A stretch of 64,000 nt of DNA, from positions 53,838 to 117,837 of the IMG/VR virus record IMGVR_UViG_3300013132_000028; one strand, 5' to 3'. Shown here piece after piece: positions 4,494 to 40,656 of the stretch. The stretch is from a virus. Each line of letters begins with the position of its first letter. Position 1 is the first letter of the stretch. Position numbers and translations under genes: made by a program. The notes below the pieces were generated by a model. It ran no database searches. It saw only the letters and a program-made list of their open reading frames with translations, and had not been told where the DNA came from.

Positions 4494-5533
4494 TGGGACT
4501 CTCCCTTCCGACTATCGTCGGTAATCGGTCCGCCTGAAATCCACGCATCGCACGTGCGAGCAGACGCACACTTGAAGTCTAGCGCCTCGCAGTAGCCTAG
4601 GTCTGCGGCTTCGATCGTGTCCCAGCCAGCGGAGGCGGCTAGTCCACTCGCTATGCACTCTTTCATCTCTGAGGTCTGAATAAAGGCCGCGCAGTTGCCG
4701 CAGCGGCTTGTCTTTGCCTCTTCGATCGTGACCGACCACTTTTCAGCCTTCTTCTGCCAGAACTCTTCGTTTGGTTCCTCTGGGTTCATGGGACCGTATC
4801 CGATGTCGTCTATCGCATTCTGACGATTCTCTAGGTTTAGCGCCAAGTCCTGTGTCGCCGGCGGGCAGACAAACTCCCCGGCGGCTTTAATCGTTTTTTC
4901 TTTTGCTGGACGTTCTACGTCCTCGCGGGAGAGCGGCTTTCCACTTTTTTCTGCCTTGTCAAACGTCTCTATGAAGTCAGGAGAAACCTCTACGATAGTC
5001 ATGCCGTCGAACTCTGTGTGCTCAGGCGGAACCCTGAACCAGGCCGAATTATTACGGCTAAACATTCCGGCGTCAGAGGTGTAAACTAGTTCCTGCACGT
5101 CTTGCGCGCTCTCGTCGAGTAGGGCGATTAGTGACTCTCCGTCTCCCGGGTCCCCTGGACTAAACGCCATAATAGTCTCCCTCATGTACATACCTTCTAG
5201 GGCTTCGGCTGGAACTGGTACTCGAAGAGTCGATGCCCAAGACCCGTCTGAGTCTTGAAACGCCCTAACAGTGTACGCCTTGCCGTAGCTATTGAACGTT
5301 ATTGTGCCACTACTTCTGTCTACTGTTACGTCGTTTTTGCTCCCTAGAGGATACTCTAGCACCTCAGATAGAGTAAACAGCGCCATTACTGGACCGTCCT
5401 CGTCGTGGTCAAACCAGGCAACCTCCGACACGGCGAAGGTCTCTCTCGGCTTGTCTAGAGTTTCAACTACGGCAGGGCCTAAGTATCCAGTTTTGTAGTC
5501 TTCCGGTATGGTAAGTTTTCTCTGCTCGGTCAT
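4490..5533 (-). CDS. Head-module protein with C-terminal Cys-rich domain, 347 aa
   Basis: CPPATQD...YGP.NP...RCGNC...LGYC...FKC...RTCDAW; AGAGG RBS. Confidence 0.7.
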   Translation of the reverse strand: MTEQRKLTIPEDYKTGYLGPAVVETLDKPRETFAVSEVAWFDHDEDGPVMALFTLSEVLEYPLGSKNDVTVDRSSGTITFNSYGKAYTVRAFQDSDGSWASTLRVPVPAEALEGMYMRETIMAFSPGDPGDGESLIALLDESAQDVQELVYTSDAGMFSRNNSAWFRVPPEHTEFDGMTIVEVSPDFIETFDKAEKSGKPLSREDVERPAKEKTIKAAGEFVCPPATQDLALNLENRQNAIDDIGYGPMNPEEPNEEFWQKKAEKWSVTIEEAKTSRCGNCAAFIQTSEMKECIASGLAASAGWDTIEAADLGYCEALDFKCASARTCDAWISGGPITDDSRKGESQ

Positions 5534-5549: not shown

Positions 5550-8500
5550 TTACTTCTTCACCGGTATAAGGTCGTCCCACGATGAGGCGCCGTACTTCTC
5601 TGGCGGTACTCCATTGTCGAGTAGCATTTTAACTAGACGTTCACGCACCGCCGGGGACACACTTATGATGGCCAGGTCTGCCCACGATATTCCGTTCTTA
5701 AACATCAGTTCGTAGGTGCCTGATCCTGAAGTGGGCTTGGCTGGTTTTATCTCACCGATCGGGTCGGTCTCCTTCATGCGCTTTCCGTACTGGTCCTTGA
5801 AGTTGGCCCAGAAGTCCAGCCGTGAGTACAGCTTCAGCGGGTCAAAGTGAAAGTACGCGTGACTGTCTGCTGCTACAGAGTAGGGCTTCATGGTTGCCTT
5901 AGGCTTCGTGAATAGGTAGTCTGCTCCCCCTGTTCTTATGTCTGCGTCGCTTGAGTCGCCCTGGCCACCAATTCCCTCTGTCCAGCGGACTGACGTGGCT
6001 TTTAGGCCGTCTTCCAGCATGAGCAGGTTGAACATCTCCTGGGCCGCTGAGTCTGCATTGTTTGCACCCTTGATTCCAAAAGAGTGAGTTATGGCGCCAG
6101 TCTCTGTTTTTTTAACCATGTACTCTGCTATTGCATTGCTCGTTCTGTACGACAGTCTGTCGTTTAGGTCGTAGGCCGGAGTGTCTAGGTTTAGCCACAT
6201 CTGTTCATAAGGCAGTCCCAGCAGCTTCTCTATCGCCTTGAGCTTCGCCTTGCGGGCAGCTCCAACTACGTTTTTTGCCGGATCAATTTCTTTGCCAAAG
6301 ATGCTAATTAGACGGTTTTCAGCCAGAACTCTTACGTCCTCTTTGGTTGCCGGTCTAGGGGCACGCACTCCGCCTAGCTTCATGCCTCTTGCGATTGCGT
6401 TGGCGGTGGAGGTTGCGTCCTGCTGCTCTGGCACTAGTACCTCTACCCTATTGTGAAAAGCAAGTCCTTCTCGACTAGTATTCAGACTGCTCACCGGCTT
6501 TGAGTCTCTATTTGCTCTGTATACTCTGATAACTGCACCGGTAATTTTGTCCGTTATTACGTATGTAGTTGTTTCATTGTAGGAAGAAGAGTACTCCACG
6601 TCCATCTGGCTACCAGACTTTACTATTGCCATGCTACCGTCTGCGTTTCTTCGCATCTTGGGCATTCTTATGCCTTGGTTTATGAGTAGATCGTACTCGT
6701 CTGTGTTCGGCACTTTTTTGAGGAGCTCAGCTACTAGATCGTCTCCAGCCCAAGACGTGAGTTTGAAGCTGGCGCGTGTGTAGGTCTTGTCGCCGTCTAC
6801 TATAGTCATCATGTGCACGTCTAGGTCTTCAACGTCTCCTGCGTCTACTGCAGCAGACCGACCGCGTGCTCCGGCGGCTGGGCTGCTCTGCACGTGCGCA
6901 ACTGCGTCTACTAGAGACTTGACGCCTGCACCCGTGAGCTCGCTCTGCGACCAGTCTACGCTAGCTAAGTCTGGGTCGTCTAGCTCTGGTACGTTTACTC
7001 CGGGACCCGCCTCTGTCAGTTTTGTCTGGTCAAACAGCCTGCCACCCGTTACTTTGTCGACGGAGCGGACTTTTTTACTTCCGTCTAAGAACTGTACCTG
7101 TACGTAGTTCTCGTAGCCCTTTGCACCTGGAAAACCGTAGATCACACCCTCGTCGCCATTTGCGTCGGTCACGGTTACGCCTTTGTACAACCAGTTATTA
7201 AATCTGTCTTTCTTAAACTTTTGATTTGCGCCCGGCGGCGGTGCAAACTGGTCCTTAATCGGGGCAAGATCGTCTTTCTCAAAAGCTAAGCCCAGCCAGG
7301 TAGCGTGCGGACTGTCTGCCTGTACATGCTGAAAGTGTGGATTATCCTTGTAGTATTCGTTGGTCTCTGACGCCACCGTAATTTTTCCGTCGCTCGTAAT
7401 TATTCCTGGTTTTGGTTGATCTTTTACACCAACTATAAAAACACCACTGTACTGAGAGTAAGCTACGTAGTCTATCTGCGACTTTTCTTTAGTGGTCTCT
7501 AGTGCGTTGTAGCGAGTAAACTCTTCTATGTAATTTTTTGCAGCGAGTGCGCCGTATTTAAGCGCAGAGTTTGTGTCAAATGGACCAAAGTCAATCTCGT
7601 TGTTGGCTACTGTTTTCTTGGTGGCGTCTGCCCACTCGTCTGGAGTGTACGACTTTAACGGAGACTCAGACTGGCTGGACGAAGACGGCGGCGGTGGTGG
7701 ATTAGGTACGGTCGGCTGCGGTGTGTTTATTTCGGTGCCGCTCTTTGGTGAACGAGTGCTCTTTATTACTGTCTTTCCACTGTACTCTACGTACTGTTGA
7801 TTTCCGTTAGTGTGCTGTAGAAACATGCGAAACTTGTGCGTCTTCTTTCCTTTGTTGTAGGCAGCACCGTGCGACGACACGCGCGCCCAGCCGGAGCCGT
7901 ACGGAATGTAGTCTCCAACTTTAAGATTTTCTACCTTGGTGTCTTTCTTTTCGTACAACTCTGGGTTGTCTAAGTCCTTCTTGTCTAGAGCCAGCGCTGG
8001 ATTGCCAACCGGCGTCTTCGTGGTAGAACTCTTCGGCTCGGCTGCGCCGCTCTTTTCTTTCTTCTTTGCTTCGAGCAGGTTCTTGACTAGCTCCACCGCC
8101 TTGGCGTTGTTTCCGCCGATGTGCCAGTCGTACTTCTTGTCCGGGTCAAGCGAGTCCGGTGTTTTCCAGTCGTACAGCCTGGCGAATATAGCTGCACCGT
8201 CCGGGCTCTCAAAACGCATTGACCACTCTTGCTGTACTTTGTCGCCAGAGCCGTACTCGTACGGCTTGCCTAGAAGCTCGGTCAACTCTTTTGGAGTGTA
8301 CTCCACGGTCTCGTTGAGAAAATAGCTACCAGACACAAACGTAGTCGTGTCGTTTATGTTTGTAACCTTGTACGAGTCTGTCGTGCCTAGCTGTGGCTCC
8401 GGCGGTGCGGTGTACTTTTGTTCGGCCGAAAGTTCTGCGGGCTTTGGCTTGACCGGGTCTGCAGACGCGCTTGCGCTTGACTCTATTAGGTGCGTAGAAA

Positions 8501-11500
8501 AGTTTTTCTTCTTTCCGCCGTCTCCTAGGTCTTCTGCAACTAGGTTTTTAGTTCCTGTTTTTGGGTTGTCCCAGCTGTTGAGCGGACGCACGGTGCGTTC
8601 CTTGCCGTTGTACACAAACTTCAACAGCTTTTTGTCTTTGATGGCCTTGCTTATCTGGTCGTGCAGTGCCTCTAGTGTTTCAGAAGTTTTCAGTACTACT
8701 GCGTCGTCAGCTGCTGTCGGCGCTGGCTCAGGGGATAAAGGGACGGCAGGCTCACTGCTCGGTGCTGGCGTTGTCGGTGCCGGTGTGTCTGGTTCACCGC
8801 CTCCAGGTCCCCCCTCCGGGAAACCTCCGTCGTCTACGATTTGCAGCGTCTTTGTCGTTTTCAGCTGCTTGTCTTTTTTGCCGTCAAACTTTACCCAGGC
8901 GTAGTCGGGGAACACGACACCTTTCTTTTTGTACACGTCTAACTTAGAGACTACGCCGACTTCGCCAGTCTTTGTAGACTTTACCTTCATGCCGGCCGCG
9001 ATCGGTGTCTTGCCGTCAGCGGAGAGGCTCTTACCGACCGGACTACTGCCTTCGGCCGGAGTTTCGACTGCAAGTTTTTCTGGCTTGGGTGCGGACGCGT
9101 CTGCCTTGGCGTTTCTGTAGACGTCGCCGAAGAAGTTTTCTGGCTTCTCGTAGTAGCCAGCGGGCGCTTGTGTGTACGGACCTAGGTCAGCCTGTCTTAG
9201 CTCATTCCAGGTTTCGGTAAACTCGTCCATCTTGTCTAGCGGCACGCGTACTTGTATGTCGTAGGTGTTGTCTTGTGCCGTTCCTTCTGCAACGATGTAC
9301 GGCACGCCGCGCTCTGCCAGGTCTACTGGTCCCTCGTCGCCGCCAAACCTAGGCATGTCGCCGCCTATGTCGTTCAGCGTTACCTCTACAAAGTTACCGT
9401 CGTCTGACAGCTTAGGCGGGTTGGCGTCGTCAAACCACTGCGTGTCTCCGGCTTTCTTTGCGTACTTACTTGTGTCCACCTCTTCGGCCGTGATAACTGG
9501 TGACTTTACTACGTCTATCTTGTCTTTCTTGGCTACGTCGCCTGCTATGCGTAGATTTTCTGCGATGCTCTTAAACTCGCCGCCTTTGCCGTGCTTTTCT
9601 TGCATGTAGTCTGCAACTTTTTCTACTTCGTCCTGTATCTCTGCAATGTCGCCTGGATTGTCGACTGGCTTTTTTTGTTGTACTGTCTTCTCTAGCTCGT
9701 CTAGTTTTTCTTTAAGGTCCAGGTCTTCTACCGGCAGGTCGGTCTGCTCCCTGTACATTTTAATTGCATCCAGTGTCTCGTCTGCAAAGTCTTCTGCTAT
9801 GACGTACGCGTCACCTGGTGTAAGCTCGTCTTCGTCAGCTGGTGCGGGTGCGTCTTTCAGGTTTTTGACCGTGACGGTGGTGTCTTTGTCAGTGAGTCCA
9901 GCGCGCTCGAGGATGTCCATTCTGCGCATCTCTAGCTTGTCTGCGACGGTCTTCTGCAGCACCGGCTCGTCTGGAAACGCGGCTGCCACGAGGCTGTCGA
10001 TGTCTGCTCTGGTTATGTCCAGCAGCTTGGAGGCGCTGGCCTTTAGTTCTGGTTCGGTCATGTCTCCAAAGATTTTTGCGGCCTGCGGGTTCATGTCCGG
10101 GTCGCGAAGCGTCTCCCACTCGTCGGCCTTGTCGCCGAACAGCTCGCCCTTTGGCTTTCCCATGGCGCGCATCAGCAGCGCACCGCCGGTGTCTACGCGG
10201 TTTGGCTTGCCGTCTACTGAGACTACGTTGTCCATGGCAAGACCGGCGACGTCCCAGTTGGCGAGCCAGGCGTCGACAGCAAAGCCGTTCTGCAGTGCCT
10301 TTTTGTAGCTAGGCTCGTCGATCTTCTTGGCCATGTCTGGCTTTGCGTCCGGCAGTATAGGCGAGACGGTGACCATGTTACCCGCCTCGTCCACGCCGAA
10401 GAACGTGTCGGCGCCGTCTACGTCTGCGCGGCGGTAGAGTGCCGAGGCCAGCACCTCGTTGCCGGCGTGCAGTGGACTCTTCGGTGTCTTTACGTAGTAC
10501 TTGCTGCCGTCTGGAGCTTCGTACGTGCCGCCCTCGTTGGAGCCGAGCTGGTTGCCGACTTTCTTCCACCCTGTGATGTCGAAAGAGCTACCTACGCTGG
10601 TGCCGATTGCGCCAGTTGGGTTCTTAGACTTGCTGAGCGCTGGCTTGTTCTGTCGCGCTACGTCTTCTTCCGACGGTGGAGCTACCTCGTCTCCGGTGCC
10701 AGCCAGGTCGCGGAAAAACAGATTTGTGTTGACGCCCTGTATCTGCAGCGCGTCGCGAATGGCCTGACCGCTGACTAGGATGTCGGTGCCACCGTCGAGC
10801 GGATACTCGAGTATCGCGTATCCGGCGCTCTCTTCTTCTAGGTCTGGCTCGACTGCAATTCTTAGTGAGTCTATCAGCGTTTCAGTGTCCCAGTTGTCCG
10901 CGATGTACAGCGGACTGTCCGTGAATCCCTCTGGAAAGCCGGCTGCGACTTCGTTGCCGTCTGCCCCGTTGTACTCCGAGGCGTAGGCGTCGGTGTCTGG
11001 TAGGTTGTAGCCTTCCGGCAGGTCTATGCTTTCGTTCGGTATCAAGTAAGGCAGGTAGTTGCCATCCTCGTTGATGCTAATGTTTTCGGCGGGCGTCAGC
11101 TTACGCAGTCGCACGATTCTTCGTCCGTCCTTGTCTACGACACTCTCGACCGCGTACTGACCCCAGACCAGCTCTCGTTCTTCTCCTATCGGTGTGCTGG
11201 TGCCATTGCCCTCGTCGATCACGACTACAAACGTGCCGTCTCCACTCTTGCCCTCTAGCACATCGTCAATGTCTCCAGTAGCTTTTTTCCACGAGTCAGG
11301 TGGGAACGAGACCACGTTGCCCTCCTCGGACAGCGCGTCTGCAAAGCCCTGGTCATCTGAGAGGTCGTACGACTTCCAGACTTTCGTGGCGTTAGTGCCG
11401 GAATTTACTGCGGACATTTTTAGCAGCGCCTGCGCGGTTGCGTACTTAGCGTCGCTCGAGTTGAATAGCTCCGGCTCCGCCTCTATTGCGGCTATCGCCT

Positions 11501-14500
11501 CTTCCAACTCTCCTGGGTTGCCGTAGGCGTCGATCACTCCTTCGGTGAAGTCGTTGGCTTCGTCCTCGTCCATGCCGAGGGTGTCTTGCGCGTACTGGCG
11601 CAGCGCTGGGTTTACTCTCTTTTGTCCGTTGTCCGGACCCTCCATCATCCACGAGCCCCACACTGCGCGGAACGGATCGTCGGCACTGCCAAACTTGTCC
11701 TGGTCGAAGTGCTTCTCCAGCTGTGTGATGTAGTCCTTGTCTCCGGGGTCAGCTCCAATAAAGTCGTTGTAGACTGCTTCGGTTGCCTCGTCTACTTCAC
11801 CAGCAGCTATTTTTTCGTTGTACTGCTTCTTGTAGGCGTTCATAGCTGTAGAAAGTTCAAACGTCTTAGCCTGCTCCTCGTTTGTCTCGTCTATTTGCAG
11901 CTTGTCGTTGCCCTCGCTCAAAATCTTGACGGAGTCCATCTCGTCCAGGTCTGCCTGCGTAGGAAATACGTCTGCCAGGTCTGGAGACTCTTGGCCGACG
12001 GTCTCCTCACCCTTGCGGGAGTCTAGCAGCGCCTTTACATTTTTGTTTTCACCCAGCTTTGCGTCATACAGCTGTGCCACGTAGAGCTCTGCGTCTACGC
12101 CCTGTTCCTCGAGCGCCTTGTACAGCGCCTCAGCCGGCACGTACTCCGAGCCAGCGTTGAACTCGAGCATGCCGAAGCCAGAGGCAGGAGCAGTGTCCTT
12201 GTCCATGGTCTTGACGCCAGAGTCGGCGGCCTGCTTCTTTTTACTCTTTGGCTTTGGTCCAGGTTTTTTAGGCGCGTCTTCGTCCATCATCTCGTCGGGG
12301 TCAAAGTCGTCTATATCAGAGTCAAAGTCCTCGTCTGCGTATGCGTCAAACTCACTCTGCTTGTTTATGAGCGCCTTGGCCAGACTCTCGCGTAGCTCCG
12401 CCTCTGCGTAGCGGTTGCCGATCTCTACCGGGTCGTCAGTGTAGTCCGAGCTTTCCTGTCCCTCTGCTGGTCCCTCCGGAGAAAACGTTTCTAAGTTCAT
12501 CTTGTAGGCGGTGCTCGGTACGCTGTACGAGAACGGTTTGGACTCTGTCGGCACTGTCTTCTTCTGCTGCTGCGGTGCTGCAGGCTTCTCAACGTCTTCT
12601 GGGCCGTCTAGTCGTGGCTTGCCAGCGACCATCTCGTCTATCTCGGTCGAGCTCCACAGGTTTCCGTTCTGTAGTCTCTCTGAGAGTTTTACTACTGATT
12701 TTTCGTCAGGACTCTGCTTGTCTGCCCAGGCTGCGTCAGCTGCTCTCTGTCTGATGTCATCTACCTTTGCGTCTTTAGCTAGCGCCTCGACTATGTCTGC
12801 TCGTCTGGCGCTCTCTGCCTTTACCGCGTCGATAGTTTTTTGTTCTGCACCGATCTCTTCTAGGGTCTTGACTAGCTTGGCTCTCTTTTCAGCTGCGCTT
12901 TGTTTTAGTGCCTCGATAAACTCTGGTCTGTCTTTGAAGGTTTTGAACTCTAGGCCATCGGACTGTCCAAACACGTACGGTGCACGGAGCGAGCCGTCTT
13001 CATTCTGTTCGAGTCGGGCCACTACTATGTCGCCGCCGTCGCTAAGCTCGAGTGCGTTGTTCTTTACAAACTCCGTGTCGTTGACGTCGTACTTTTTCGG
13101 AGTAGGGTCTGCGTCAAACAACTCTCCTTGGCCTGGGTCCAACGGGTTTAGTTCCTTGCCCATGCCGCTGTCTTTGTACATTCCTGGTATGCTGACTACT
13201 TCGCTTGGTGGACGAACGTTCTTCTCGTCCGGCGTCACTGCTGACCAGCCTGGCTCGAGCGGATTGCCCTGGTTGTCTATGCGGTCTGCGGCCTGTTTTT
13301 TGAGCATGGCCATGCGCTCTGCTACGTGCTCGGCGTGCAGTGCCTTGGCCTGCTCGTTGAACTTATCTACTTTTACCTGCCAGGCGTCCCACGTGTCGCT
13401 CTTTAGTCTGGCCTTTACCTCGCGCTCTTCTACGCTCTTGTCGAGTCTAGGCTCGTCGGTCTTAATGATTTTCTGTGTGTCTGCCCAGTTTTGTGCAACG
13501 CCGATCGGAACTAACTTTGGTTTACCGTTTGAGTCTTGGTCCATTCGGGTTGCGATGTAGTACGGCTTTTGCTTGTCCCAGGCGCCGTTCTCGCCGTCGC
13601 CGATTAGCTCACGTACCTCACGCTTGTCAGGCTCTAGACTTTCCTGTGACTCGTTGTGTTTGCGTATTTCTGCGATGGTGTCTTTCAAACTTTGGTCTGG
13701 CTTGTCTACCTTTGTCACCGCGTACTCGTCGTCTGTGCTCATGTACGTCGTGCGACCCTGCAGAGTGTCCTTGTAAACTCTGAAGCCGGCTGGTGCCTCT
13801 ACTAGTTTGATGTCTGCTTCAGTCAAAACTTTGTCTTTTGAGCTGTAGCGTGCTTCGCCCTTTTTATCTACGTCTACGCTTGGCTTGAGTACGGCCTTTA
13901 CGCCGGAGGTGGCTTGGGCCGGTACTCTGTAAATCTTTCCGTCTGGTGTTTGTACGTCAAACGTGTCTGTGTCTACGTCTGCCGCCACAGTGCGTCCAGT
14001 TACCCAGCTGACCAAACCGTCTGCTGCCTTTAGCAGCCACCTAAGTCCGCCACCCATCTCGGCAAACTGTCCCTCTGAGTCGCGGCGTTGTAGCATTGCA
14101 CGAGCTCTGCGGGCGGCTGACGAGTTACCGTCTTTTAGAGCTGCAACTATTGTCTGTGCTTCTACACTTAGTACGTCGTTTGGTACAAATCGACCAATTA
14201 CCGACTGAAGCTGTGCTACGGCGTGAACTTGCGCAGGAGTTCCAACAGGAGCGCCAAACGCAGACGCTACGACTGTGCGAAGGTCGTCTTCCAGCCTTGG
14301 GTCCGTGGACAGCCATCGACCACGAGCCTGGCGCAGCGCCGAGGCAGTCATCGAGTGGGTGCGGCTGCACAGCGGGTGTGACAGTGGCAGCAGGTCTGTA
14401 TTCTCTGCAAAAGTCGCCGTCTTGTTGCTTGGGTTCTGGCTCATGGAGATAAAGGTGCCTAAGTCGCGCAGCGCCTGGTACTCTCTGATAGAGAAGGACA

Positions 14501-14723
14501 GTCCTCGCGTGCGGTCCAGCGACCTGCGTACTACTGTCATGGCCGCGCGTTTCGTGACGCGACGTTCTGGCAGCACCTTTGGATTCTCGTTGGCTAAGTA
14601 CGCCAACACGCTGTTGTACAGCAGCTGCGCCTGCTTTTGTACGGTGAGTCGCTGTGGTCTCTTGGCCGTGGCCGCTTTTTTGTCGATGGCGTTTACGAGC
14701 TTGTTTAGTATGTCGCTGCTCAC
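5550..14723 (-). CDS. Giant polyvalent virion-associated protein (PI3K/HipA-like kinase, WYL, SH3/KOW-like repeats, ART-like domains), 3057 aa
   Basis: Uninterrupted ORF between portal and protease. Kinase-like LGSNEGG..YYVK..NEVLAS..DAWLANWD..N..RVDTGGAL at about 9900-10585; WYL-like AIKDKKLLKFVYNGKERTVRP at about 8480-8680. Confidence 0.75.
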   Translation of the reverse strand: MSSDILNKLVNAIDKKAATAKRPQRLTVQKQAQLLYNSVLAYLANENPKVLPERRVTKRAAMTVVRRSLDRTRGLSFSIREYQALRDLGTFISMSQNPSNKTATFAENTDLLPLSHPLCSRTHSMTASALRQARGRWLSTDPRLEDDLRTVVASAFGAPVGTPAQVHAVAQLQSVIGRFVPNDVLSVEAQTIVAALKDGNSSAARRARAMLQRRDSEGQFAEMGGGLRWLLKAADGLVSWVTGRTVAADVDTDTFDVQTPDGKIYRVPAQATSGVKAVLKPSVDVDKKGEARYSSKDKVLTEADIKLVEAPAGFRVYKDTLQGRTTYMSTDDEYAVTKVDKPDQSLKDTIAEIRKHNESQESLEPDKREVRELIGDGENGAWDKQKPYYIATRMDQDSNGKPKLVPIGVAQNWADTQKIIKTDEPRLDKSVEEREVKARLKSDTWDAWQVKVDKFNEQAKALHAEHVAERMAMLKKQAADRIDNQGNPLEPGWSAVTPDEKNVRPPSEVVSIPGMYKDSGMGKELNPLDPGQGELFDADPTPKKYDVNDTEFVKNNALELSDGGDIVVARLEQNEDGSLRAPYVFGQSDGLEFKTFKDRPEFIEALKQSAAEKRAKLVKTLEEIGAEQKTIDAVKAESARRADIVEALAKDAKVDDIRQRAADAAWADKQSPDEKSVVKLSERLQNGNLWSSTEIDEMVAGKPRLDGPEDVEKPAAPQQQKKTVPTESKPFSYSVPSTAYKMNLETFSPEGPAEGQESSDYTDDPVEIGNRYAEAELRESLAKALINKQSEFDAYADEDFDSDIDDFDPDEMMDEDAPKKPGPKPKSKKKQAADSGVKTMDKDTAPASGFGMLEFNAGSEYVPAEALYKALEEQGVDAELYVAQLYDAKLGENKNVKALLDSRKGEETVGQESPDLADVFPTQADLDEMDSVKILSEGNDKLQIDETNEEQAKTFELSTAMNAYKKQYNEKIAAGEVDEATEAVYNDFIGADPGDKDYITQLEKHFDQDKFGSADDPFRAVWGSWMMEGPDNGQKRVNPALRQYAQDTLGMDEDEANDFTEGVIDAYGNPGELEEAIAAIEAEPELFNSSDAKYATAQALLKMSAVNSGTNATKVWKSYDLSDDQGFADALSEEGNVVSFPPDSWKKATGDIDDVLEGKSGDGTFVVVIDEGNGTSTPIGEERELVWGQYAVESVVDKDGRRIVRLRKLTPAENISINEDGNYLPYLIPNESIDLPEGYNLPDTDAYASEYNGADGNEVAAGFPEGFTDSPLYIADNWDTETLIDSLRIAVEPDLEEESAGYAILEYPLDGGTDILVSGQAIRDALQIQGVNTNLFFRDLAGTGDEVAPPSEEDVARQNKPALSKSKNPTGAIGTSVGSSFDITGWKKVGNQLGSNEGGTYEAPDGSKYYVKTPKSPLHAGNEVLASALYRRADVDGADTFFGVDEAGNMVTVSPILPDAKPDMAKKIDEPSYKKALQNGFAVDAWLANWDVAGLAMDNVVSVDGKPNRVDTGGALLMRAMGKPKGELFGDKADEWETLRDPDMNPQAAKIFGDMTEPELKASASKLLDITRADIDSLVAAAFPDEPVLQKTVADKLEMRRMDILERAGLTDKDTTVTVKNLKDAPAPADEDELTPGDAYVIAEDFADETLDAIKMYREQTDLPVEDLDLKEKLDELEKTVQQKKPVDNPGDIAEIQDEVEKVADYMQEKHGKGGEFKSIAENLRIAGDVAKKDKIDVVKSPVITAEEVDTSKYAKKAGDTQWFDDANPPKLSDDGNFVEVTLNDIGGDMPRFGGDEGPVDLAERGVPYIVAEGTAQDNTYDIQVRVPLDKMDEFTETWNELRQADLGPYTQAPAGYYEKPENFFGDVYRNAKADASAPKPEKLAVETPAEGSSPVGKSLSADGKTPIAAGMKVKSTKTGEVGVVSKLDVYKKKGVVFPDYAWVKFDGKKDKQLKTTKTLQIVDDGGFPEGGPGGGEPDTPAPTTPAPSSEPAVPLSPEPAPTAADDAVVLKTSETLEALHDQISKAIKDKKLLKFVYNGKERTVRPLNSWDNPKTGTKNLVAEDLGDGGKKKNFSTHLIESSASASADPVKPKPAELSAEQKYTAPPEPQLGTTDSYKVTNINDTTTFVSGSYFLNETVEYTPKELTELLGKPYEYGSGDKVQQEWSMRFESPDGAAIFARLYDWKTPDSLDPDKKYDWHIGGNNAKAVELVKNLLEAKKKEKSGAAEPKSSTTKTPVGNPALALDKKDLDNPELYEKKDTKVENLKVGDYIPYGSGWARVSSHGAAYNKGKKTHKFRMFLQHTNGNQQYVEYSGKTVIKSTRSPKSGTEINTPQPTVPNPPPPPSSSSQSESPLKSYTPDEWADATKKTVANNEIDFGPFDTNSALKYGALAAKNYIEEFTRYNALETTKEKSQIDYVAYSQYSGVFIVGVKDQPKPGIITSDGKITVASETNEYYKDNPHFQHVQADSPHATWLGLAFEKDDLAPIKDQFAPPPGANQKFKKDRFNNWLYKGVTVTDANGDEGVIYGFPGAKGYENYVQVQFLDGSKKVRSVDKVTGGRLFDQTKLTEAGPGVNVPELDDPDLASVDWSQSELTGAGVKSLVDAVAHVQSSPAAGARGRSAAVDAGDVEDLDVHMMTIVDGDKTYTRASFKLTSWAGDDLVAELLKKVPNTDEYDLLINQGIRMPKMRRNADGSMAIVKSGSQMDVEYSSSYNETTTYVITDKITGAVIRVYRANRDSKPVSSLNTSREGLAFHNRVEVLVPEQQDATSTANAIARGMKLGGVRAPRPATKEDVRVLAENRLISIFGKEIDPAKNVVGAARKAKLKAIEKLLGLPYEQMWLNLDTPAYDLNDRLSYRTSNAIAEYMVKKTETGAITHSFGIKGANNADSAAQEMFNLLMLEDGLKATSVRWTEGIGGQGDSSDADIRTGGADYLFTKPKATMKPYSVAADSHAYFHFDPLKLYSRLDFWANFKDQYGKRMKETDPIGEIKPAKPTSGSGTYELMFKNGISWADLAIISVSPAVRERLVKMLLDNGVPPEKYGASSWDDLIPVKK

Positions 14724-15520
14724 TGTGCCACCTCCTGTCTCGGCAGTAGGTCTAGGTCCTTGGAGGCGGTGCTCAGCTCAGCCAGTGCCAGTGCACGCTC
14801 GAACGGAGACTCTCCGTCTCGTACGGCGCGTAGCCAGGCCGCTCTGATGGCCGGCTCGGCTTGGTAGCCTAGTCCAGAAAACTCTGTCAGGGCGAGGACT
14901 GCTTGCTCTGGGTTCTCGTACTCACTCGGCTCTAGCAGCACGACAGAAAGTTCATCGGTCCACGCTACTTCGGCCGAAGCAAGTATCGAGTTGCTTTTCT
15001 TGGTCGAACGCGGGTGCTTTGCAGGAAGCAAGTCGTTGTCAGTGGTGTAGTTCGCGTTCTTTGGCCTGCCGCTCCTCAGCAGTTTTAGAAAAGCGTTGAC
15101 CCTAGCTGCGGCCCACTGGTCGCGCGTCATGCCTGGACGGTGACTGCCGGAGAATGCTCCTGCGCCGCGTCTGTACACTGCCTTGAGCATAGCGCTTGAC
15201 GCCTTGCGTCCCTCCGGTGCCTTCTCGTTGTGCTTGCGTACTTTCTCGGCGAGCATGGCTTCAGTCCGCTTTGAAAACTTAATTGACTTTGACTTTTTTG
15301 CGGTGGCAGACTTTGGCTTGTTTTTACTGGAGCCACGTACGCGCTCGCTGCGCTTTGCCTTCGGATGACGCTTGCCGACGGCCAGTTTCTCGATGTTCGA
15401 GGCTTCGTCTGGCACGCAGTTAGGAACTAGCTTTCCGTTTTTTCTTTTCATTCCGACTTGTTTGTAGCCCTTCCAACACGGCTTGGCGGCGCTCACGATG
15501 CTCTCTTCTTCGTACGACAC
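14720..15520 (-). CDS. Head-associated protein with PCWKGY module and DUF5824-like domain
   Basis: PCWKGYKQVGMK...VPNCVP and LKAVYRRGAGAF...QWAAARVNAFL motifs. Confidence 0.65.
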   Translation of the reverse strand: MSYEEESIVSAAKPCWKGYKQVGMKRKNGKLVPNCVPDEASNIEKLAVGKRHPKAKRSERVRGSSKNKPKSATAKKSKSIKFSKRTEAMLAEKVRKHNEKAPEGRKASSAMLKAVYRRGAGAFSGSHRPGMTRDQWAAARVNAFLKLLRSGRPKNANYTTDNDLLPAKHPRSTKKSNSILASAEVAWTDELSVVLLEPSEYENPEQAVLALTEFSGLGYQAEPAIRAAWLRAVRDGESPFERALALAELSTASKDLDLLPRQEVAQ

Positions 15521-15522
15521 GT

Positions 15523-17310
15523 CTAGGCCTTTGGCTCAGTTGGCAGTTCACCTGGGTCGGGTGCCTGTGCTGGCTCCCGTTCCGCCGGTGGTGCTACGTC
15601 TGTTGTCGGCTCCTCTGTCGTTTCTGTCGCTTCTGGTTGTGTTGCTCCTCGTGCAAGGTCCATGACTCGTTGTACGTCTGCAGGCAAATCTTCGGTGGCG
15701 TTACCACGAACTCTGGCCATGGTGTCCGGTGTAAACACTGTAAGCATGGCTTCTGTAAGCTCTGGAGTAATCTGACCCTTCTCTACTAGTATGCGAAGCG
15801 CTACCTCTGTCTCCGACGGTGCGTCGGCGCTTGAAAAGCCGTGAGCGCTGCGCCAAGCGTCTCCAGAAATAATGTGTCGGTCGTAGCCTAGATCTGCGTC
15901 TGATGCGCGGTCGTTGCGCGTGGACACGGCGCTCGGGTCATACCAAATAGTTAGCTTGTCTACCTCTGACGGAGTGTACCCATTGCTGATTAGGTACGGT
16001 CTGAAGTACACTACGGTGAGCGCGTCTACAATCAGCAGCATCAGCGGCTCGATGTGGGCTTTGTACATAGACTCGTCGATCTGCAGCGCGTTTGAGTACT
16101 TGATGTTTGCCATGCCGGTGACTACGTCCTTAGGAATGTCAATACCCTGCAAGATACGCTCCAGCACTCTGTCGGCACGCTGAGCCAGCTCAGGGTCAAA
16201 CGAGCGCTCAAACTTGAACTGCTTGATCTTGTCGCCGAGCTCTGCAGGTCCGCGAATGATGAGCGGAACGACTGCGCTGGCGGAGTCCTCGTCGCGGATT
16301 GGCGTGGTCATCGCGTCGATGAGCTGGTCCTCGAACTCGTCTTCTGCTTCCTGCGTGACTGCTCCCGGGTTGAGCAAGTCGTCGTCAATTACGTCCGGGT
16401 CACCGCTGGCGGCGACGGACAAACCGTCTGGTAGGTACAGTGCTCCAGCGTTTAGGCGCGAACGAGCTGTGGCACGAAATGTTCTGTTTAGCAGTAGCAG
16501 CTCAGCGCAGAGATCGAGCATGCCGCGTAGGCTGGAGTCTGCCTCGTCGGAGAAGCGAGGGTGTGCTCTCCAAATGCGTCCGACAAACGCGTTGCCAGGT
16601 AGCTCATAGCCGCCTCGTCTCGAGCCGGCCTGTCCACCGCCCATCTGCTCACGACGGCTGATGAGTGAGAATGATCTGTTCTTGTTGGTGACGGCGACCA
16701 CCTCGTCGGTGCTTTTAATGTCCCAAGACTCTGGAATACCGGAACCAGGTCTAGCCGGTACCTGTACTAAATAGCACTCGCCACAAACACTGAGATTCAG
16801 CGCTGCGTCTCGCAGTAAACCAGGTTGACCACCGTACGCGGAGTCCAGGCGGGTGATTGCGCGCTCCGCCGCCATTGCTAGGTTTTTGTCTACACTTTGT
16901 ACGTCTCTCACTGACTTAGGCGCCTCTGACGGATCGTCGATTATTGCGGGATAGAGACGAATACGCGAGATTACTGAGGCCACTAGATTGAAGGCGTACT
17001 TGATCTCGCCGATGGCGTCGTAGTACTCCCACGCTTCTCTCTGCCAAGCAGAGCTGGCGGAGTTGCGGCGAAGTCTAAATTGTTCGTACTCGTCGCGGCT
17101 GTTCATCTTTACCTGCACCGCAGCCGCGGTCATTACACGCGGTGAGTTAAAGGGCCCTGCCGTTGCCGGAGAAAGAAATATAGACGACAGTCCTCTTGAA
17201 CTGGGAATGACTGTGTTAGAAATAGTTTTGTCAGCCGCGGAAGATGCACGCAAAGAAACGGCCGATGTCGTAGGTTCGTCAGAGCTTGGAGTACGTCTGA
17301 ATATGCTCAA
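15523..17310 (-). CDS. Portal protein
   Basis: WQREAWEYYDAIGEIKY, WRAHPR...ADS, ARSRL.AG, DSASAVVP match actinophage portals; start re-called to TTG at 17310 after AGGAG. Confidence 0.75.
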   Translation of the reverse strand: MSIFRRTPSSDEPTTSAVSLRASSAADKTISNTVIPSSRGLSSIFLSPATAGPFNSPRVMTAAAVQVKMNSRDEYEQFRLRRNSASSAWQREAWEYYDAIGEIKYAFNLVASVISRIRLYPAIIDDPSEAPKSVRDVQSVDKNLAMAAERAITRLDSAYGGQPGLLRDAALNLSVCGECYLVQVPARPGSGIPESWDIKSTDEVVAVTNKNRSFSLISRREQMGGGQAGSRRGGYELPGNAFVGRIWRAHPRFSDEADSSLRGMLDLCAELLLLNRTFRATARSRLNAGALYLPDGLSVAASGDPDVIDDDLLNPGAVTQEAEDEFEDQLIDAMTTPIRDEDSASAVVPLIIRGPAELGDKIKQFKFERSFDPELAQRADRVLERILQGIDIPKDVVTGMANIKYSNALQIDESMYKAHIEPLMLLIVDALTVVYFRPYLISNGYTPSEVDKLTIWYDPSAVSTRNDRASDADLGYDRHIISGDAWRSAHGFSSADAPSETEVALRILVEKGQITPELTEAMLTVFTPDTMARVRGNATEDLPADVQRVMDLARGATQPEATETTEEPTTDVAPPAEREPAQAPDPGELPTEPKA

Positions 17311-17417
17311 GTTTTTCTCCTGCACGGTCGTTTGGGCACGGAGTATGACGTCTGTCCCGGAGAACAATTTTCATACGCGGTGATGCGGCAATCATACACG
17401 CAAAATGGGCAGTGCTA

Positions 17418-17705
17418 CTACAGTTTTTGAACCTCGTGCAGCGTCCTCGCCAGGTCGGCTATGTCCTCGAGTGAGAGCACCACGGCCACTTCTGGCCCGG
17501 CCATCTCCTCTATCTGGTCCAGCAGGGGAGAGAGCTCCTCCCGGCTGAGACCGCTCCTTTGGCAGAGGTATCTCTGCATTTCTTCCAGCACCCTGGCCAG
17601 GTTGTTCTGCACGTCGTCTATGGACATCTGTATCAGCTCCAGCCTGAGCTTCATGTCCTCTACACTGTCCTGCTTGTCATACTTCCAGGCATCATCGTGG
17701 TGCAT
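17418..17705 (-). CDS. Hypothetical protein
   Basis: 95-aa acidic helical ORF with GAGG RBS. Confidence 0.55.
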   Translation of the reverse strand: MHHDDAWKYDKQDSVEDMKLRLELIQMSIDDVQNNLARVLEEMQRYLCQRSGLSREELSPLLDQIEEMAGPEVAVVLSLEDIADLARTLHEVQKL

Positions 17706-17757
17706 ATTCAGCCTCGTTTCCCCCGGATGTTTGGCTTCCAGATGGTATTATTTTAGT

Positions 17758-18387
17758 ATGACGTGTATAGTCGCAGTTACGGCAGCAGGCCGAGTTATTA
17801 TGGCGGCCGAGCGAGGCAACAGCGACGACTCGCTTATAGTATCGTCTTTAGATTCAAAGATCGTTACCCGCGGTGAGTTTCTTTTTGGCTACTCGGGCAG
17901 CACAGGGGTCGGGCAAGCGTTTCAATACGGATTTACGATACCACCGATAAAGAACAGAAAAAACATCACTGCGCACATGGTAAGCGTGGTCGTACCTGCT
18001 ATGCGCGAGTTCTACAGAGAAAACAGCCTCAGCTGGACCGGGGACCCGAAGGAGGACGACGGGTGCACTCTGCTCTTTGGTGTGTCCGGAAGAATATACG
18101 AGTGTGACCTTTCTGACTTCCAGATGGTTGAGTACAAGGAGCTGGCCATCGGCTCTGGCGGCAACTACGCCCTGGGCTCACTCTACTCCACTAAGCACAT
18201 AAAAGACCCAAAAATCCGTCTGCGGCTAGCGGTAGAGGCCGCCATCGAGTACAGTCCCTCCTGCCGAGGACCGATAGACTACTTCTACGAAAACCCGTCC
18301 AAGGTCCGCAGGAAAAAAAGTACGAAGACTAAAACTGGTAAAAATAAAAAATCAAAAGGTCAGGCGTCTAAATCTAAGTCTTCTTGA
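17758..18387 (+). CDS. HslV/proteasome-beta-like Ntn peptidase
   Basis: Re-called start MTCIVAV puts Thr at the N-terminus; AIGSGGNYALG and AAIEYSPSC motifs; leaderless (TATTAT 6 nt upstream). Confidence 0.8.
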   Translation: MTCIVAVTAAGRVIMAAERGNSDDSLIVSSLDSKIVTRGEFLFGYSGSTGVGQAFQYGFTIPPIKNRKNITAHMVSVVVPAMREFYRENSLSWTGDPKEDDGCTLLFGVSGRIYECDLSDFQMVEYKELAIGSGGNYALGSLYSTKHIKDPKIRLRLAVEAAIEYSPSCRGPIDYFYENPSKVRRKKSTKTKTGKNKKSKGQASKSKSS

Positions 18388-39825: not shown

Positions 39826-40014
39826 TTAGGCCAAGTTTTTCTTCGTAAGCATGCGTGTCTTCGGGTTACGAATCTTTTCGCCTGCCTGTATGATGTAGGA
39901 CTTGGCTGTTGGGTAGGAGACCCCTAAGCGAAGTGCCACTGTCTCGACCGACATGTTATCTGCATAAAGCTTCCCCGCCTTACGCACACGTGTCGCGATT
40001 TGTGCTTCCGTCAT
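39826..40014 (-). CDS. Small HTH protein, paralog of 22869
   Basis: KAGKLY...SVETVA..LGVSY.TA...I...G..IR. Confidence 0.7.
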   Translation of the reverse strand: MTEAQIATRVRKAGKLYADNMSVETVALRLGVSYPTAKSYIIQAGEKIRNPKTRMLTKKNLA

Positions 40015-40230
40015 TGCGTCCCTCCTTCTTGGGAAGAATGTGGTCGTCGGCACCTTGCCGACATGCCCTACAATAGCACGCCGCACTGTAAATGTAAAGG
40101 TGTAATAGAGTGATGCTTATCACTAAACTCGTTTCTAAAAAAGCCATCTTCGCGTACTCGCGTGACAGACGTCCCCAGGGATGTTTAGATTAGATCTAAG
40201 GCTTAGGCTTTTGGTTTGGTTTTTCCAAGG

Positions 40231-40289
40231 CACGCCGCCATAACTACGGGCCCGTGGTTCCCCACGCCGCCGTAATTACGAGCCCGTGG
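40231..40289. repeat. 27-bp direct repeat pair CACGCCGCCRTAAYTACGRGCCCGTGG
   Basis: Copies at 40231-40257 and 40263-40289, 3 mismatches. Confidence 0.85.
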
Positions 40290-40649: not shown

Positions 40650-40656
40650 TCATATA

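What the first reader, a model, noticed from the sequence alone, without database searches (positions are those of the whole stretch)
5550..14723. 3057-aa polyvalent head protein combining kinase, WYL and ART-like domains: candidate injected effector
Seen: a PI3K/HipA-like kinase (about 9900-10585), a WYL-like domain (about 8480-8680), a YDWK..WHIGG module (about 8090-8330), several SH3/KOW-like units and acidic/Pro linkers, all encoded between portal and protease. Known: MuF-associated and polyvalent phage proteins deliver enzymes with the DNA, and WYL domains sense nucleic acids. Inference: a sensor-plus-modifier package for host takeover or counter-defence. I do not recognise this combination.
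Basis: partly seen in the sequence, partly recalled or inferred. Interest (0 to 1): 0.8.

Follow-up and report, generated by a model that had tools for sequence, protein, structure and literature searches.

The report
Giant phage protein carrying kinase, ART
A 3057-residue gene next to the portal gene of an uncultured actinobacterial phage encodes a 'polyvalent' multi-enzyme protein (a HipA/CtkA-like kinase, a WYL-like domain and a DarT-like ADP-ribosyltransferase) that is probably carried in the phage head and delivered into the host, a known kind of phage weapon in a new domain combination.

Summary
The 9174-base ORF (5550-14723, minus strand, 3057 aa) is real and lies between the portal and head-maturation genes of a 118-kb IMG/VR phage record.

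- **WYL-like domain (aa 1995-2100):** 6 of 13 orthologous segments hit Pfam WYL. The protein's own segment scores below threshold.
- **YDWK module:** a small phage domain of unknown function.
- **SH3/KOW-like units:** not tested.

**Relatives and context**
- Relatives are classical polyvalent proteins (Iyer et al. 2017) that share the N- and C-terminal modules.
- In 5 of 5 scanned ~760-aa relatives, a Pfam MuF head domain is fused directly to the same C-module.
- Gene order is conserved in the IMG/VR relatives.

**What remains inferred:** packaging, ejection, enzyme activity and targets.

**Verdict:** new variant of a known kind. First-stage readers had noted this same stretch in overlapping windows, not on other DNA.

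The parts
5550..14723 (-). Whole gene, 3057 aa plus stop: polyvalent head-module protein
   Evidence: ORF list and translation. Full-length relatives at 56-96% identity, P0003-P0007.
13434..14723 (-). N-module, aa 1-430 (best conserved 26-340): unassigned fold, presumed head-association module
   Evidence: Shared at the N-terminus of relatives. In A4 (16 sequences) R80, D110, L111, L112, H116, P117, W137, D141, P142, P181, R208, Q212, R214, D215 and G224 are invariant. No Pfam, PHROG or PDB match. hhalign against MuF gives probability 0.4%.
14064..14090 (-). Q-x-R-D-x-x-G-Q-F motif (aa 212-220) inside the N-module
   Evidence: Regex scan. The same motif occurs in the 627-aa and 871-aa head proteins. 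The residues are invariant in A4.
12009..12554 (-). Module A, aa 724-905, conserved, unknown function
   Evidence: BLASTP map. Present in 17 of 22 non-duplicate loci.
10674..11108 (-). Module B, aa 1206-1350, conserved, directly precedes the kinase in many relatives
   Evidence: hits spanning query 4-430. Present in 12 of 22 loci.
9864..10610 (-). Atypical protein-kinase-like domain (HipA/CtkA/CotH/PI4K-II-like), aa 1372-1620
8814..9041 (-).
   Evidence: Bounded by linkers. Similar segments follow the kinase in 4 of 22 loci.
8424..8741 (-). WYL-like domain, aa 1995-2100
   Evidence: detailed under the observation check.
8049..8396 (-). YDWK..WHIGG module, aa 2110-2225, small phage domain of unknown function
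   Evidence: Within polyvalent genes it occurs only in the ~90% identical relatives.
7332..7523 (-). Weak, unconfirmed NERD-like stretch, aa ~2401-2464
   Evidence: Pfam NERD E 0.0087, 17 bits against a cut-off of 22.1. No support.
6135..6971 (-). C-module, first part (aa 2585-2863): alpha+beta domain plus helical linker region, no clear fold match
5553..6134 (-). C-module, last part (aa 2864-3057): DarT-like ADP-ribosyltransferase fold with invariant H2880, Y2936 and E3005
15523..17367 (-). Portal gene (context)
   Evidence: phrog_776, E 2.3e-101.
14720..15520 (-). DUF5824 gene between the portal and the giant gene (context)
   Evidence: PF19141, E 1.3e-8. Syntenic in relatives.
1..5533 (-). 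Downstream head-module genes (347 aa; 627 aa; 871+ aa, which runs off the window) (context)
   Evidence: Syntenic in relatives. In phage DSL-LC01 the corresponding genes are annotated as capsid maturation protease.

Best explanation
The gene encodes a polyvalent effector protein of the phage head module.

**Proposed mechanism**
- A conserved N-terminal module of ~340-430 aa and a conserved C-terminal module of ~470 aa frame a string of cargo domains. These are joined by Pro-, acid- and Lys-rich linkers.
- The protein is made with the head proteins. It is incorporated into the capsid near the portal, at the gene position that MuF-type minor head proteins occupy in other phages, and it leaves the capsid with the DNA.
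- Once in the cell, two enzymes act. A HipA/CtkA-like atypical kinase phosphorylates a host target, most likely a protein. A DarT-like H-Y-E ADP-ribosyltransferase uses NAD+ to modify a host macromolecule, which could be a nucleic acid or a protein.
- The WYL-like beta-barrel and the other small modules probably bind ligands or nucleic acids, or serve as spacers.

**Shown here**
- The ORF itself.
- The three folds.
- Conservation of the catalytic residues.
- The modular architecture across relatives.
- The MuF-C-module fusion in short relatives.
- The conserved gene order.

**Inferred**
- Packaging and ejection.
- Catalytic activity.
- The substrates.
- Any proteolytic processing.
For: **Kind of protein**
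- 17 relatives were found among 8000 scored candidates.
- The distant ones carry Pfam RNase_T, ADPrib_exo_Tox, UvrD, ArdcN and MPTase-PolyVal domains. These are the domains that Iyer et al. use to define polyvalent proteins (PMC5512222, passages).

**Architecture**
- Of 22 non-duplicate long loci, the C-module is in 22, the kinase in 20, the N-module in 18, module A in 17, module B in 12 and WYL in 9.
- The two loci without a kinase, L109 and L110, begin at a contig end.

**Link to the head**
- 12 IMG/VR loci encode 751-779-aa proteins that carry the same C-module.
- 5 of 5 of these that were scanned have Pfam Phage_Mu_F (E 3e-14 to 4e-12) plus PHROG head-morphogenesis families in their first ~290 aa.
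- No Pfam MuF match exists elsewhere in this 118-kb record.
- The order portal, DUF5824, giant gene, p347, p627, p871 is seen on both sides in 20 of 31 long loci and on one side in the other 11, which are cut by locus or contig ends.
- The order is also seen in phage DSL-LC01.

**Kinase**
- The domain has 4326 representative clusters at E <= 1e-3. Most are in proteins of 1000-7000 aa.

**ART**

**WYL**
Against: **Packaging and the N-module**
- There is no direct evidence of packaging. The lineage is known only from metagenomes.
- The N-module is not demonstrably MuF: hhalign gives 0.4%, and Pfam, PHROGs and PDB give no hit.

**The ART call rests on middling scores**
- Foldseek found no match at E <= 1e-3.
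- hhalign probability is only 27.7%.
- Pfam DarT finds nothing in the record at E <= 1.

**Self-protection**
- No Macro or NADAR gene was found that could protect the phage's own DNA from a DNA-directed ART. The record is estimated to be 88% complete.

**Sequence-family matches of the protein's own segments**
- The protein's own kinase segment gives no Pfam hit.
- Its own WYL segment is below Pfam's cut-off.

**Size and coverage**
- A ~330-kDa protein must pass the tail. No tail sheath was detected, so a non-contractile tail is likely.
- About half of the protein remains without any assignment: aa 380-720, 905-1205, 1640-1870 and 2230-2585.
Confidence: 0.6

Rival explanations
1. The protein is a polyprotein. 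It is packaged, or at least assembled into proheads, and the prohead protease then cuts it at the linkers into separate small proteins (kinase, WYL protein, ART and so on). These act or are ejected independently, as with T4 internal proteins and Alt (recalled). This elaborates the best explanation and does not exclude it.
For: Eleven long low-complexity linkers separate the modules. The gene sits directly upstream of genes annotated as maturation protease in DSL-LC01 and hitting protease-labelled PHROGs. A Q-x-R-D-x-x-G-[KQ]-F motif is shared by three head-module proteins. First-stage notes on the same stretch propose shared cleavage-like motifs; I did not test that proposal.
Against: I did not test any cleavage-site motif against shuffled controls or across relatives. 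No protease specificity is known. The same modules also occur as parts of intact giant ORFs in all relatives, which neither supports nor excludes cleavage.
Confidence: 0.3
2. The protein is a late protein that is not ejected. It acts inside the already infected cell, or serves as an assembly or scaffolding factor of the large capsid, and the enzymes modify host or phage components late in infection, as with T4 ModA/ModB (recalled).
For: It sits in a late structural operon. The N-module has no demonstrable MuF homology.
Against: The same C-module is fused to a bona fide Pfam MuF domain in the short relatives, and MuF fusions are the accepted mark of head-delivered cargo (PMC5512222 and PMC9503650, passages). 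The giant gene holds the MuF position after the portal in 20 of 31 loci.
Confidence: 0.2
3. The 'Trojan horse' reading: the enzymes are toxins aimed at eukaryotic grazers that ingest infected cells, as proposed for VIP2-type ARTs of freshwater phages.
For: Kavagutti et al. 2019 (PMC6802176, passages) report 24 freshwater phages, some predicted to infect Actinobacteria, that encode VIP2-like ARTs, and they propose this role. Relatives P0011 and P0014 carry that Pfam ART, PF03496.
Against: This protein has no PF03496 domain. Its ART-like fold is closest to bacterial DarT and its kinase to bacterial CtkA, CotH and HipA. No translocation or receptor-binding component was seen.
Confidence: 0.05
4. 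The domains are catalytically dead relics and the protein is purely structural, for example an internal core or a DNA-spooling or ejection-conduit protein.
For: The protein is very large and linker-rich. Half of it has no recognisable fold.
Against: The catalytic residues are strictly conserved. K1412, D1491, N1499 and D1511 are kept in 158 of 158 relatives and E1423 in 157 of 158. H2880, Y2936 and E3005 are kept in 33 of 33.
Confidence: 0.05

Closest known systems
Polyvalent proteins of phages and conjugative elements (Iyer, Burroughs, Anand, de Souza, Aravind 2017, PMC5512222)
   Same: Both are giant multi-domain proteins with unrelated enzymatic domains in one chain. They are encoded beside virion genes and predicted to be delivered with the DNA. 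Relatives of this protein carry the class's hallmark Pfam domains: MPTase-PolyVal, ArdcN, ART, RNase_T and UvrD.
   Different: This protein has none of those Pfam domains. The paper's ARTs are of the H-Y-D 'Tox-ART-HYD2' type, whereas here His, Tyr and Glu are invariant and the fold is closest to DarT. The paper's kinase is described as an S/T/Y kinase that lacks the C-lobe and occurs mainly in Verrucomicrobia-Chlamydia and Bacteroidetes (pro)phages. Here the domain is HipA/CtkA-like, keeps a helical C-lobe and has its closest relatives in Actinomycetota. I could not compare alignments because the paper's supplementary File S2 was not available to me.
MuF-effector fusions (phage Mu gpF / SPP1 gp7 type minor head proteins with C-terminal toxin domains)
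   Same: The ~760-aa relatives are exactly this: Pfam MuF followed by the same C-module. The gene position after the portal is the same.
   Different: In this protein the N-module shows no detectable MuF homology, and ~2100 aa of cargo lie between the N- and C-modules.
DarT (DNA ADP-ribosyltransferase toxin of DarTG toxin-antitoxin systems; PDB 8baq, 7omu, 7omv, 7yk3)
   Different: There is no Pfam DarT match and sequence identity is 7-14%. No DarG-like Macro or NADAR partner is present. The domain is embedded in a 470-aa module at the end of a head protein. The substrate is unknown.
HipA / CtkA / CotH / PI4K type II atypical kinases
   Different: The protein's own sequence hits no Pfam kinase family. 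The catalytic loop reads N-W-D-x6-D-N. The domain is part of a phage head-module protein and not a toxin-antitoxin toxin or spore-coat enzyme.
T4 Alt (head-packaged, injected ART) and N4 virion RNA polymerase (3500-aa ejected protein); recalled, Alt also described in PMC5512222 and PMC9503650
   Same: They are precedents for an enzyme carried in the capsid and delivered with the DNA, and for ejection of a very large protein.
   Different: Alt is an R-S-E ART. No sequence or fold relation to either was seen here.
Actinomycetia phage DSL-LC01 hypothetical protein WJZ48510 (OQ999401, 3289 aa)
   Same: It is the only GenBank phage record with a full-length relative: 44% of the query covered at 32% identity, in the same gene position.
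   Different: It is a metagenome-assembled genome annotated as 'hypothetical protein'. The paper (PMC10611076) was seen only as a search listing.

Membership tests
Polyvalent proteins (Iyer et al. 2017) | Two or more unrelated effector-type domains in one polypeptide | tested here: met
   Kinase-like fold, ART-like fold and WYL-like domain lie in one 3057-aa ORF.
Polyvalent proteins (Iyer et al. 2017) | Encoded by a phage or conjugative element in a virion or transfer gene context | tested here: met
   IMG/VR virus record, between portal and head-maturation genes, with conserved gene order.
Polyvalent proteins (Iyer et al. 2017) | Homology network linking it to proteins with hallmark domains (MPTase-PolyVal, ArdC-N, ART, helicases) | tested here: met
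   P0009-P0016 share the N-module, kinase or C-module and carry PF18818, PF08401, PF03496, PF00929 and PF00580. This protein itself has none of these.
Polyvalent proteins (Iyer et al. 2017) | Delivered into the recipient cell with the DNA | not testable with these tools
   Needs virion proteomics or an ejection assay. No cultured member exists.
Protein-kinase-like superfamily | Bilobal kinase fold | tested here: met
Protein-kinase-like superfamily | Beta-3 Lys, alpha-C Glu, catalytic-loop Asp and Asn, metal-binding Asp | tested here: met
   K1412, D1491, N1499 and D1511 are kept in 158 of 158 relatives and E1423 in 157 of 158. Their places on strands and helices of the model fit. The assignment of roles is by position and not by superposition.
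HipA family (Pfam HipA_C PF07804) | Score above Pfam's threshold | tested here: not met
   The protein's own segment matches 0 families at E <= 1. 21 of 67 relatives match weakly, best E 1.2e-5. It works like, and is distantly related to, HipA-type kinases, but I do not file it as HipA.
PI3K/PI4K family | Sequence membership (Pfam PI3_PI4_kinase) | tested here: not met
WYL domain (Pfam PF13280) | Score above Pfam's threshold | tested here: inconclusive
   Own segment scores 11.7-11.8 bits against a cut-off of 21.8. 6 of 13 orthologous segments match, best E 7.2e-7. The profile's best PDB hit is the WYL region of 7p5x_AY and 9fnd_X, E 0.044.
WYL domain (Pfam PF13280) | Sm/SH3-like beta-barrel fold | not tested
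ADP-ribosyltransferase superfamily, H-Y-E clade / DarT-like | ART core fold | tested here: met
ADP-ribosyltransferase superfamily, H-Y-E clade / DarT-like | His on strand 1, Tyr on a following strand, Glu at the start of strand 5 | tested here: met
   H2880, Y2936 and E3005 are invariant in 33 of 33 sequences. They lie on or at model strands 293-299, 352-358 and 421-425. The Glu aligns with DarT's invariant Glu. No residue-level superposition was done.
DarT family (Pfam PF14487) | Sequence membership | tested here: not met
   No match at E <= 1 in the whole record and none at E <= 0.1 for the C-module. hhalign probability is 27.7%. The fold is DarT-like, but I do not file it as DarT.
DarTG system | Cognate ADP-ribose-removing partner (Macro or NADAR) | tested here: not met
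   No PF01661 or PF08719 match at E <= 1 in the 118-kb record, which is estimated 88% complete.
MuF / SPP1 gp7 minor head protein (Pfam PF04233) | MuF domain in this protein | tested here: not met
   No Pfam hit. hhalign of the N-module against the MuF part of the short relatives gives probability 0.4%. Position and fusion logic are MuF-like only by analogy.
Alt/VIP2 ARTs (Pfam PF03496) | Sequence membership | tested here: not met
   Absent here. Present in relatives P0011 and P0014.

The most novel reading that the evidence does not exclude
A lineage of actinobacterial phages has turned two enzyme types best known as bacterial toxin-antitoxin or abortive-infection toxins, a HipA-like kinase and a DarT-like ADP-ribosyltransferase, into capsid-borne weapons. 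Both are fixed in one giant head protein that replaces MuF and both are delivered with the DNA. The ART then modifies host nucleic acid and the kinase a host translation or transcription factor within seconds of entry. An unrecognised N-terminal module with the Q-x-R-D-x-x-G-x-F tag would serve as a new capsid-targeting device shared with two other head proteins.
Probability: 0.25. Interest if true: 0.8.

Novelty: new variant of a known kind. Interest (0 to 1): 0.55.

Why it matters
Polyvalent proteins are thought to be the first phage molecules to act in a newly infected cell, yet almost none have been studied at the bench.

This protein offers three concrete things:
- **A kinase family with no model of its own in the Pfam copy searched.** The atypical kinase is well folded and strictly conserved. 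It has 4326 clusters at 50% identity and forms the core of one polyvalent lineage.
- **A conserved ART module with a clean argument for head delivery.** The 470-aa C-module ends in a DarT-like ART. Its fusion to MuF in simple relatives supports delivery through the head.
- **A map of fixed and swappable modules.** The N-module, kinase and C-module are fixed, whereas WYL, YDWK and other modules vary.

If the enzymes are active, they would show phages using toxin-antitoxin-type chemistry offensively. They would also provide new reagents: a small stand-alone kinase and a possible nucleic-acid ART.

If packaging is not confirmed, this remains an annotated example of a known class.

Tried and rejected
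**Searches on the whole protein**
- Pfam, PHROGs, NCBIfam and PDB-sequence searches gave nothing useful.
- Megablast against GenBank phages found no match.

**Searches on segments and modules**
- The ESM Atlas search on aa 2480-3057 gave only low scores. The best was 0.86, and a Shigella_OspC cluster reached 0.82. I treated these as leads only.
- PDB profile searches with the kinase, C-module and N-module alignments gave nothing significant. LepB 4jw1 at E 1.8 was noted and not pursued.
- BFVD Foldseek on the C-module found no match at E <= 1e-3. The high-probability rows are uncharacterised giant-virus, iridovirus and baculovirus proteins. I could not check whether these belong to the DarT-related ORF28 family mentioned in PMC9503650.
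- hhalign of the N-module against MuF gave 0.4%. The PHROGs scan of 16 N-modules gave nothing at E <= 0.01.

**An idea of mine that failed**
- I thought aa 755-905 and 1255-1345 might be repeats of one unit. BLASTP found no alignment at E <= 100 and the self-BLAST printed nothing, so I dropped the idea.

**Other leads that stayed open**
- The NERD lead at aa 2401-2464 got no support from the word-index homologue search or from PDB.
- For the YDWK module the word-index search found nothing.
- PDB phmmer on aa 340-700, 845-1200 and 1630-1880 gave only chance-level rows.

**Complex prediction**
- The prediction of portal plus N-module (aa 1-345) returned 'no answer' with score 0.00. It is no evidence either way.

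**Not done**
- I did not fold the SH3/KOW-like units, the YDWK module, the WYL domain, the N-module or the unassigned stretches.
- I did not test the cleavage-motif idea from the first-stage notes.
- I did not use sequencing-run tools.
- Supplementary files of papers were closed. File S2 of PMC5512222, the authors' kinase alignment, could bear on whether this kinase family is the one they described.


Full report
**1. The object**

The window holds an uninterrupted minus-strand ORF from 14723 to 5550, giving 3057 aa. Its GTG start overlaps the stop of the upstream gene by four bases. Its end lies 17 bases before the next gene.

The window is the right-hand 64 kb of a 117,837-base IMG/VR virus record that CheckV estimates to be 88% complete.

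The neighbouring genes on the same strand are as follows:
- a portal gene (15523-17367, phrog_776, E 2e-101);
- a DUF5824 protein (14720-15520);
- downstream, a 347-aa protein, a 627-aa protein and a protein of more than 871 aa whose best PHROG hits are labelled portal, head maturation protease or virion structural protein.

The only GenBank phage record with a full-length relative is the metagenome-assembled Actinomycetia phage DSL-LC01. There a 3289-aa hypothetical protein sits between the portal gene and three genes annotated as capsid maturation protease, followed by the major capsid protein. I saw the DSL-LC01 paper only as a search listing.

**2. First pass**

Scans of the whole protein against Pfam, PHROGs, NCBIfam and PDB sequences found nothing.

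A word-indexed homology search over the full length gave 17 proteins. Five are full-length relatives at 56-96% identity. Twelve are more distant giants of 2030-5050 aa. According to precomputed or rescanned Pfam hits, the distant ones carry RNase_T, ADPrib_exo_Tox, UvrD-type helicase, ArdcN, MPTase-PolyVal and NUDIX domains.

[quoted passage not shown] 2017. I read passages of PMC5512222.

**3. Module map**

BLASTP of the protein against its relatives shows discrete shared blocks:
- aa ~20-430, always N-terminal;
- aa 724-905;
- aa 1206-1350;
- aa 1380-1650;
- aa 1995-2109;
- aa ~2590-3040, at or near the C-terminus.

Eleven stretches with under 20% hydrophobic residues, rich in Pro, Asp, Glu and Lys, separate the blocks.

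**4. The kinase**

*Distribution*
- An exhaustive HMMER search with aa 1200-2399 found 4326 representative clusters at E <= 1e-3, of which 817 were at <= 1e-30.
- Nearly all matched query positions ~180-415, which correspond to aa 1379-1614.
- Most were inside proteins of 1000-7000 aa. A few were solo proteins of 229-370 aa.

*Fold*
- A 67-sequence alignment gave an AlphaFold model with mean pLDDT 93.5 and pTM 0.91.
- Foldseek against the PDB returned 421 matches at E <= 1e-3 among at least 500 counted, and all listed rows are kinases. Helicobacter pylori CtkA came first (E 1.2e-6, TM 0.64).

|---|---|
| CtkA (213 residues aligned) | 15.9 |
| CotH | 14.6 |
| PI4K-IIα | 13.9 |
| MavQ | 13.0 |
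| HipA | 12.0 |
| Actin-fragmin kinase | 11.5 |
| Fam20 | 10-11 |

*Sequence-family matches*
- 21 of 67 family members give weak Pfam HipA_C hits (best E 1.2e-5) and 4 give HipA_2 hits. The protein's own segment gives none.

*Catalytic residues*
- I checked 158 relatives that were not selected by a motif pattern. They came, with the four closest relatives left out.
- G1394, K1412, D1491, N1499 and D1511 are kept in 158 of 158, and E1423 in 157.
- On the model these residues sit where the beta-3 Lys, the alpha-C Glu, the catalytic loop and the metal-binding Asp of kinases sit.
It is not a member of either Pfam family.

*Taxonomic range*
- In one genome per species, 130 of 140 pattern matches were confirmed.
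- The closest are in Pseudonocardia (53%), a Micromonosporaceae MAG (49%) and Streptomyces (47-48%).
- Others are in Proteobacteria, Chloroflexota, Verrucomicrobiota and further phyla.

**5. The WYL-like domain**

- Pfam WYL finds one sub-threshold match in the whole record, at window 8580-8663 (E 0.028, 11.8 bits).
- Thirteen orthologous segments from related contigs were aligned. Six of them hit PF13280, best E 7.2e-7. The protein's own segment scores E 0.27.
- The profile's best PDB hit, at E 0.044, is residues 149-236 of chains 7p5x_AY and 9fnd_X, 'transcriptional regulator-like protein'. There the characteristic strands align, including the stretch that reads W-Y-L in that chain.
- From recall, 7p5x is the PafBC-RNA polymerase complex.
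- I take the domain as WYL-like with about 80% confidence. Its fold was not predicted here.

**6. The C-module and the ART**

*Distribution*
- aa 2480-3057 hit 77 of 164 stored proteins, and 76 of these matched over 260 residues or more. Most matches lie within 50 residues of the C-terminus.
- A seeded scan of IMG/VR gave 49 loci.
- Twelve of them encode proteins of only 751-779 aa. All five that I scanned have Pfam Phage_Mu_F (E 3e-14 to 4e-12) and PHROG head-morphogenesis families in their first ~290 aa, directly followed by the C-module.

*Conservation and fold*
- In a 33-sequence alignment, H2880, R2913, S2924, D2928, Y2936, R2968, D2970, D2977 and E3005 are invariant.
- The AlphaFold model of aa 2585-3057 has pLDDT 86.9 and pTM 0.88.
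- Foldseek found nothing at E <= 1e-3, but ranks 1-5 are all DarT (E 0.03-0.07, probability 0.85-0.98).

*Profile comparison*
- A profile-profile comparison used an alignment of 15 DarT homologues from actinobacterial-phylum genomes. It gave P 6.4e-4 over 98 columns, with probability 27.7%.
- It placed the invariant Glu of this module on the invariant Glu of DarT.

*Weighing the ART call*
- For it: the consistency of the matches, the gap to unrelated rows, and the invariant His, Tyr and Glu on the expected strands.
- I put the ART fold at about 75%.

*First part of the module*
- The first ~280 residues of the module have only weak, mixed matches.

**7. The N-module**

- It is shared at the N-terminus of the long relatives.
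- It has invariant residues, including D-L-L-P-x-x-H-P and Q-x-R-D-x-x-G.
- It matches nothing in Pfam, PHROGs or PDB, and hhalign against the MuF part of the short relatives is negative.
- No Pfam MuF domain is found anywhere in the record.
- Its role in head association is inferred from position only.
- The motif Q-x-R-D-x-x-G-[KQ]-F recurs once each in the 627-aa and 871-aa head proteins. The looser pattern has only five matches in all six frames of the window.

**8. What is fixed and what is cargo**

Counts are over 22 non-duplicate long loci, after ten near-duplicates were dropped.

| Module | Loci with it (of 22) |
|---|---|
| C-module | 22 |
| Kinase | 20 |
| N-module | 18 |
| Module A | 17 |
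| Module B | 12 |
| WYL | 9 |
| aa 1640-1870 | 6 |

- The two loci without a kinase start at a contig end.
- The YDWK module, the unit at aa 2245-2330, the region aa 2355-2500 and the insert aa 905-1205 occur only in the ~90% identical relative.
- The order portal, DUF5824, giant gene, p347, p627, p871 is seen on both sides in 20 of 31 long loci. It is seen on one side in the other 11, which are cut by locus or contig ends.

**9. The YDWK module**

- It resembles stand-alone phage hypothetical proteins of 100-117 aa (Atlas score 0.92, 185-199 of 256 features shared).
- It matches a few small hypothetical ORFs in GenBank phages (best E 8e-6).
- The word-index search found none.
- It has no link to ARTs and its function is unknown.

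**10. Reading**

- The best-supported reading is a capsid-borne polyvalent effector.
- The strongest argument for delivery is indirect: the same C-module is fused to a true MuF domain in simpler phages, and the giant gene holds the MuF position.
- The literature treats MuF fusions and polyvalent proteins as head-packaged and injected (PMC5512222 and PMC9503650, passages). Those are themselves largely computational inferences.
- No Macro, NADAR or tail-sheath gene was detected in the record.
- Processing by the prohead protease, action only inside the infected cell, an anti-grazer toxin role (PMC6802176, passages) and a purely structural role are the rivals, in falling order of likelihood.

**11. 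Novelty**

- The kind is known. Three particulars were not found in the Pfam or PHROGs copies searched here or in the passages I read:
  - a HipA/CtkA-like kinase as the fixed core;
  - a DarT-like ART in a conserved C-module that is also fused to MuF;
  - an unassigned N-module.
- My searches were 'polyvalent protein' + 'HipA' (one unrelated paper), 'CtkA' + phage + kinase and 'MuF' + 'DarT' + phage.
- These cover only the held library, and supplements were closed, so I claim a new variant and not a new kind.

Noticed in passing
window 14064-14090 (-), and within genes 2610-4493 (-) and 1-2613 (-): The motif Q-x-R-D-x-x-G-[KQ]-F occurs once in each of three head-module proteins: the giant protein at aa 212-220, the 627-aa protein at aa 365-373 and the 871-aa protein at aa 814-822. 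The looser pattern RD..G.[FW] has only 5 matches in all six frames of the window. The residues are invariant in 16 of 16 N-modules. It could be a shared capsid-targeting or scaffold-binding tag.
   Followed up: partly
L111 (IMG/VR contig), about 9771-15300: Downstream of one C-module there is a second N-module (from 12151) and a second kinase-like domain (from 14626). This suggests two giant polyvalent genes in tandem.
   Followed up: no
L117-L130 (IMG/VR contigs): These loci encode proteins of 751-779 aa that consist of a Pfam MuF domain followed directly by the DarT-like C-module. They are followed by relatives of the 627-aa and 347-aa head proteins.
   Followed up: partly
L154-L163 and L192-L211 (genome contigs): The kinase-like domain is multi-copy in some bacterial genomes. 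Four loci are in Endozoicomonas atrinae. At least 14 loci are in one unnamed MAG, all matching only query residues 16-179.
   Followed up: no
window 7332-7523 (-): A weak Pfam NERD (nuclease-related) hit, E 0.0087 and below the cut-off, lies at aa ~2401-2464 of the giant protein. Two further searches gave no support.
   Followed up: partly
window 17461-18387 (+): An HslV/proteasome-like peptidase gene (phrog_1040 E 1.7e-22; Pfam Proteasome E 1.9e-4) sits on the opposite strand directly beside the portal gene.
   Followed up: no
window 40001-42000 and 54001-56000: Two GC-rich islands (0.685 and 0.635) stand against a background of about 0.52-0.57. Several overlapping long ORFs on both strands lie there.
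   Followed up: no
L002 (Aeromonas phage ST4, gene ST4_109) and hits H2-H9: The same kinase-like domain (37-42% identity) sits inside ~1200-aa proteins of ~90-kb phages of Gram-negative hosts. Several are annotated 'ADP-ribosyltransferase', presumably for another domain of those proteins.
   Followed up: no
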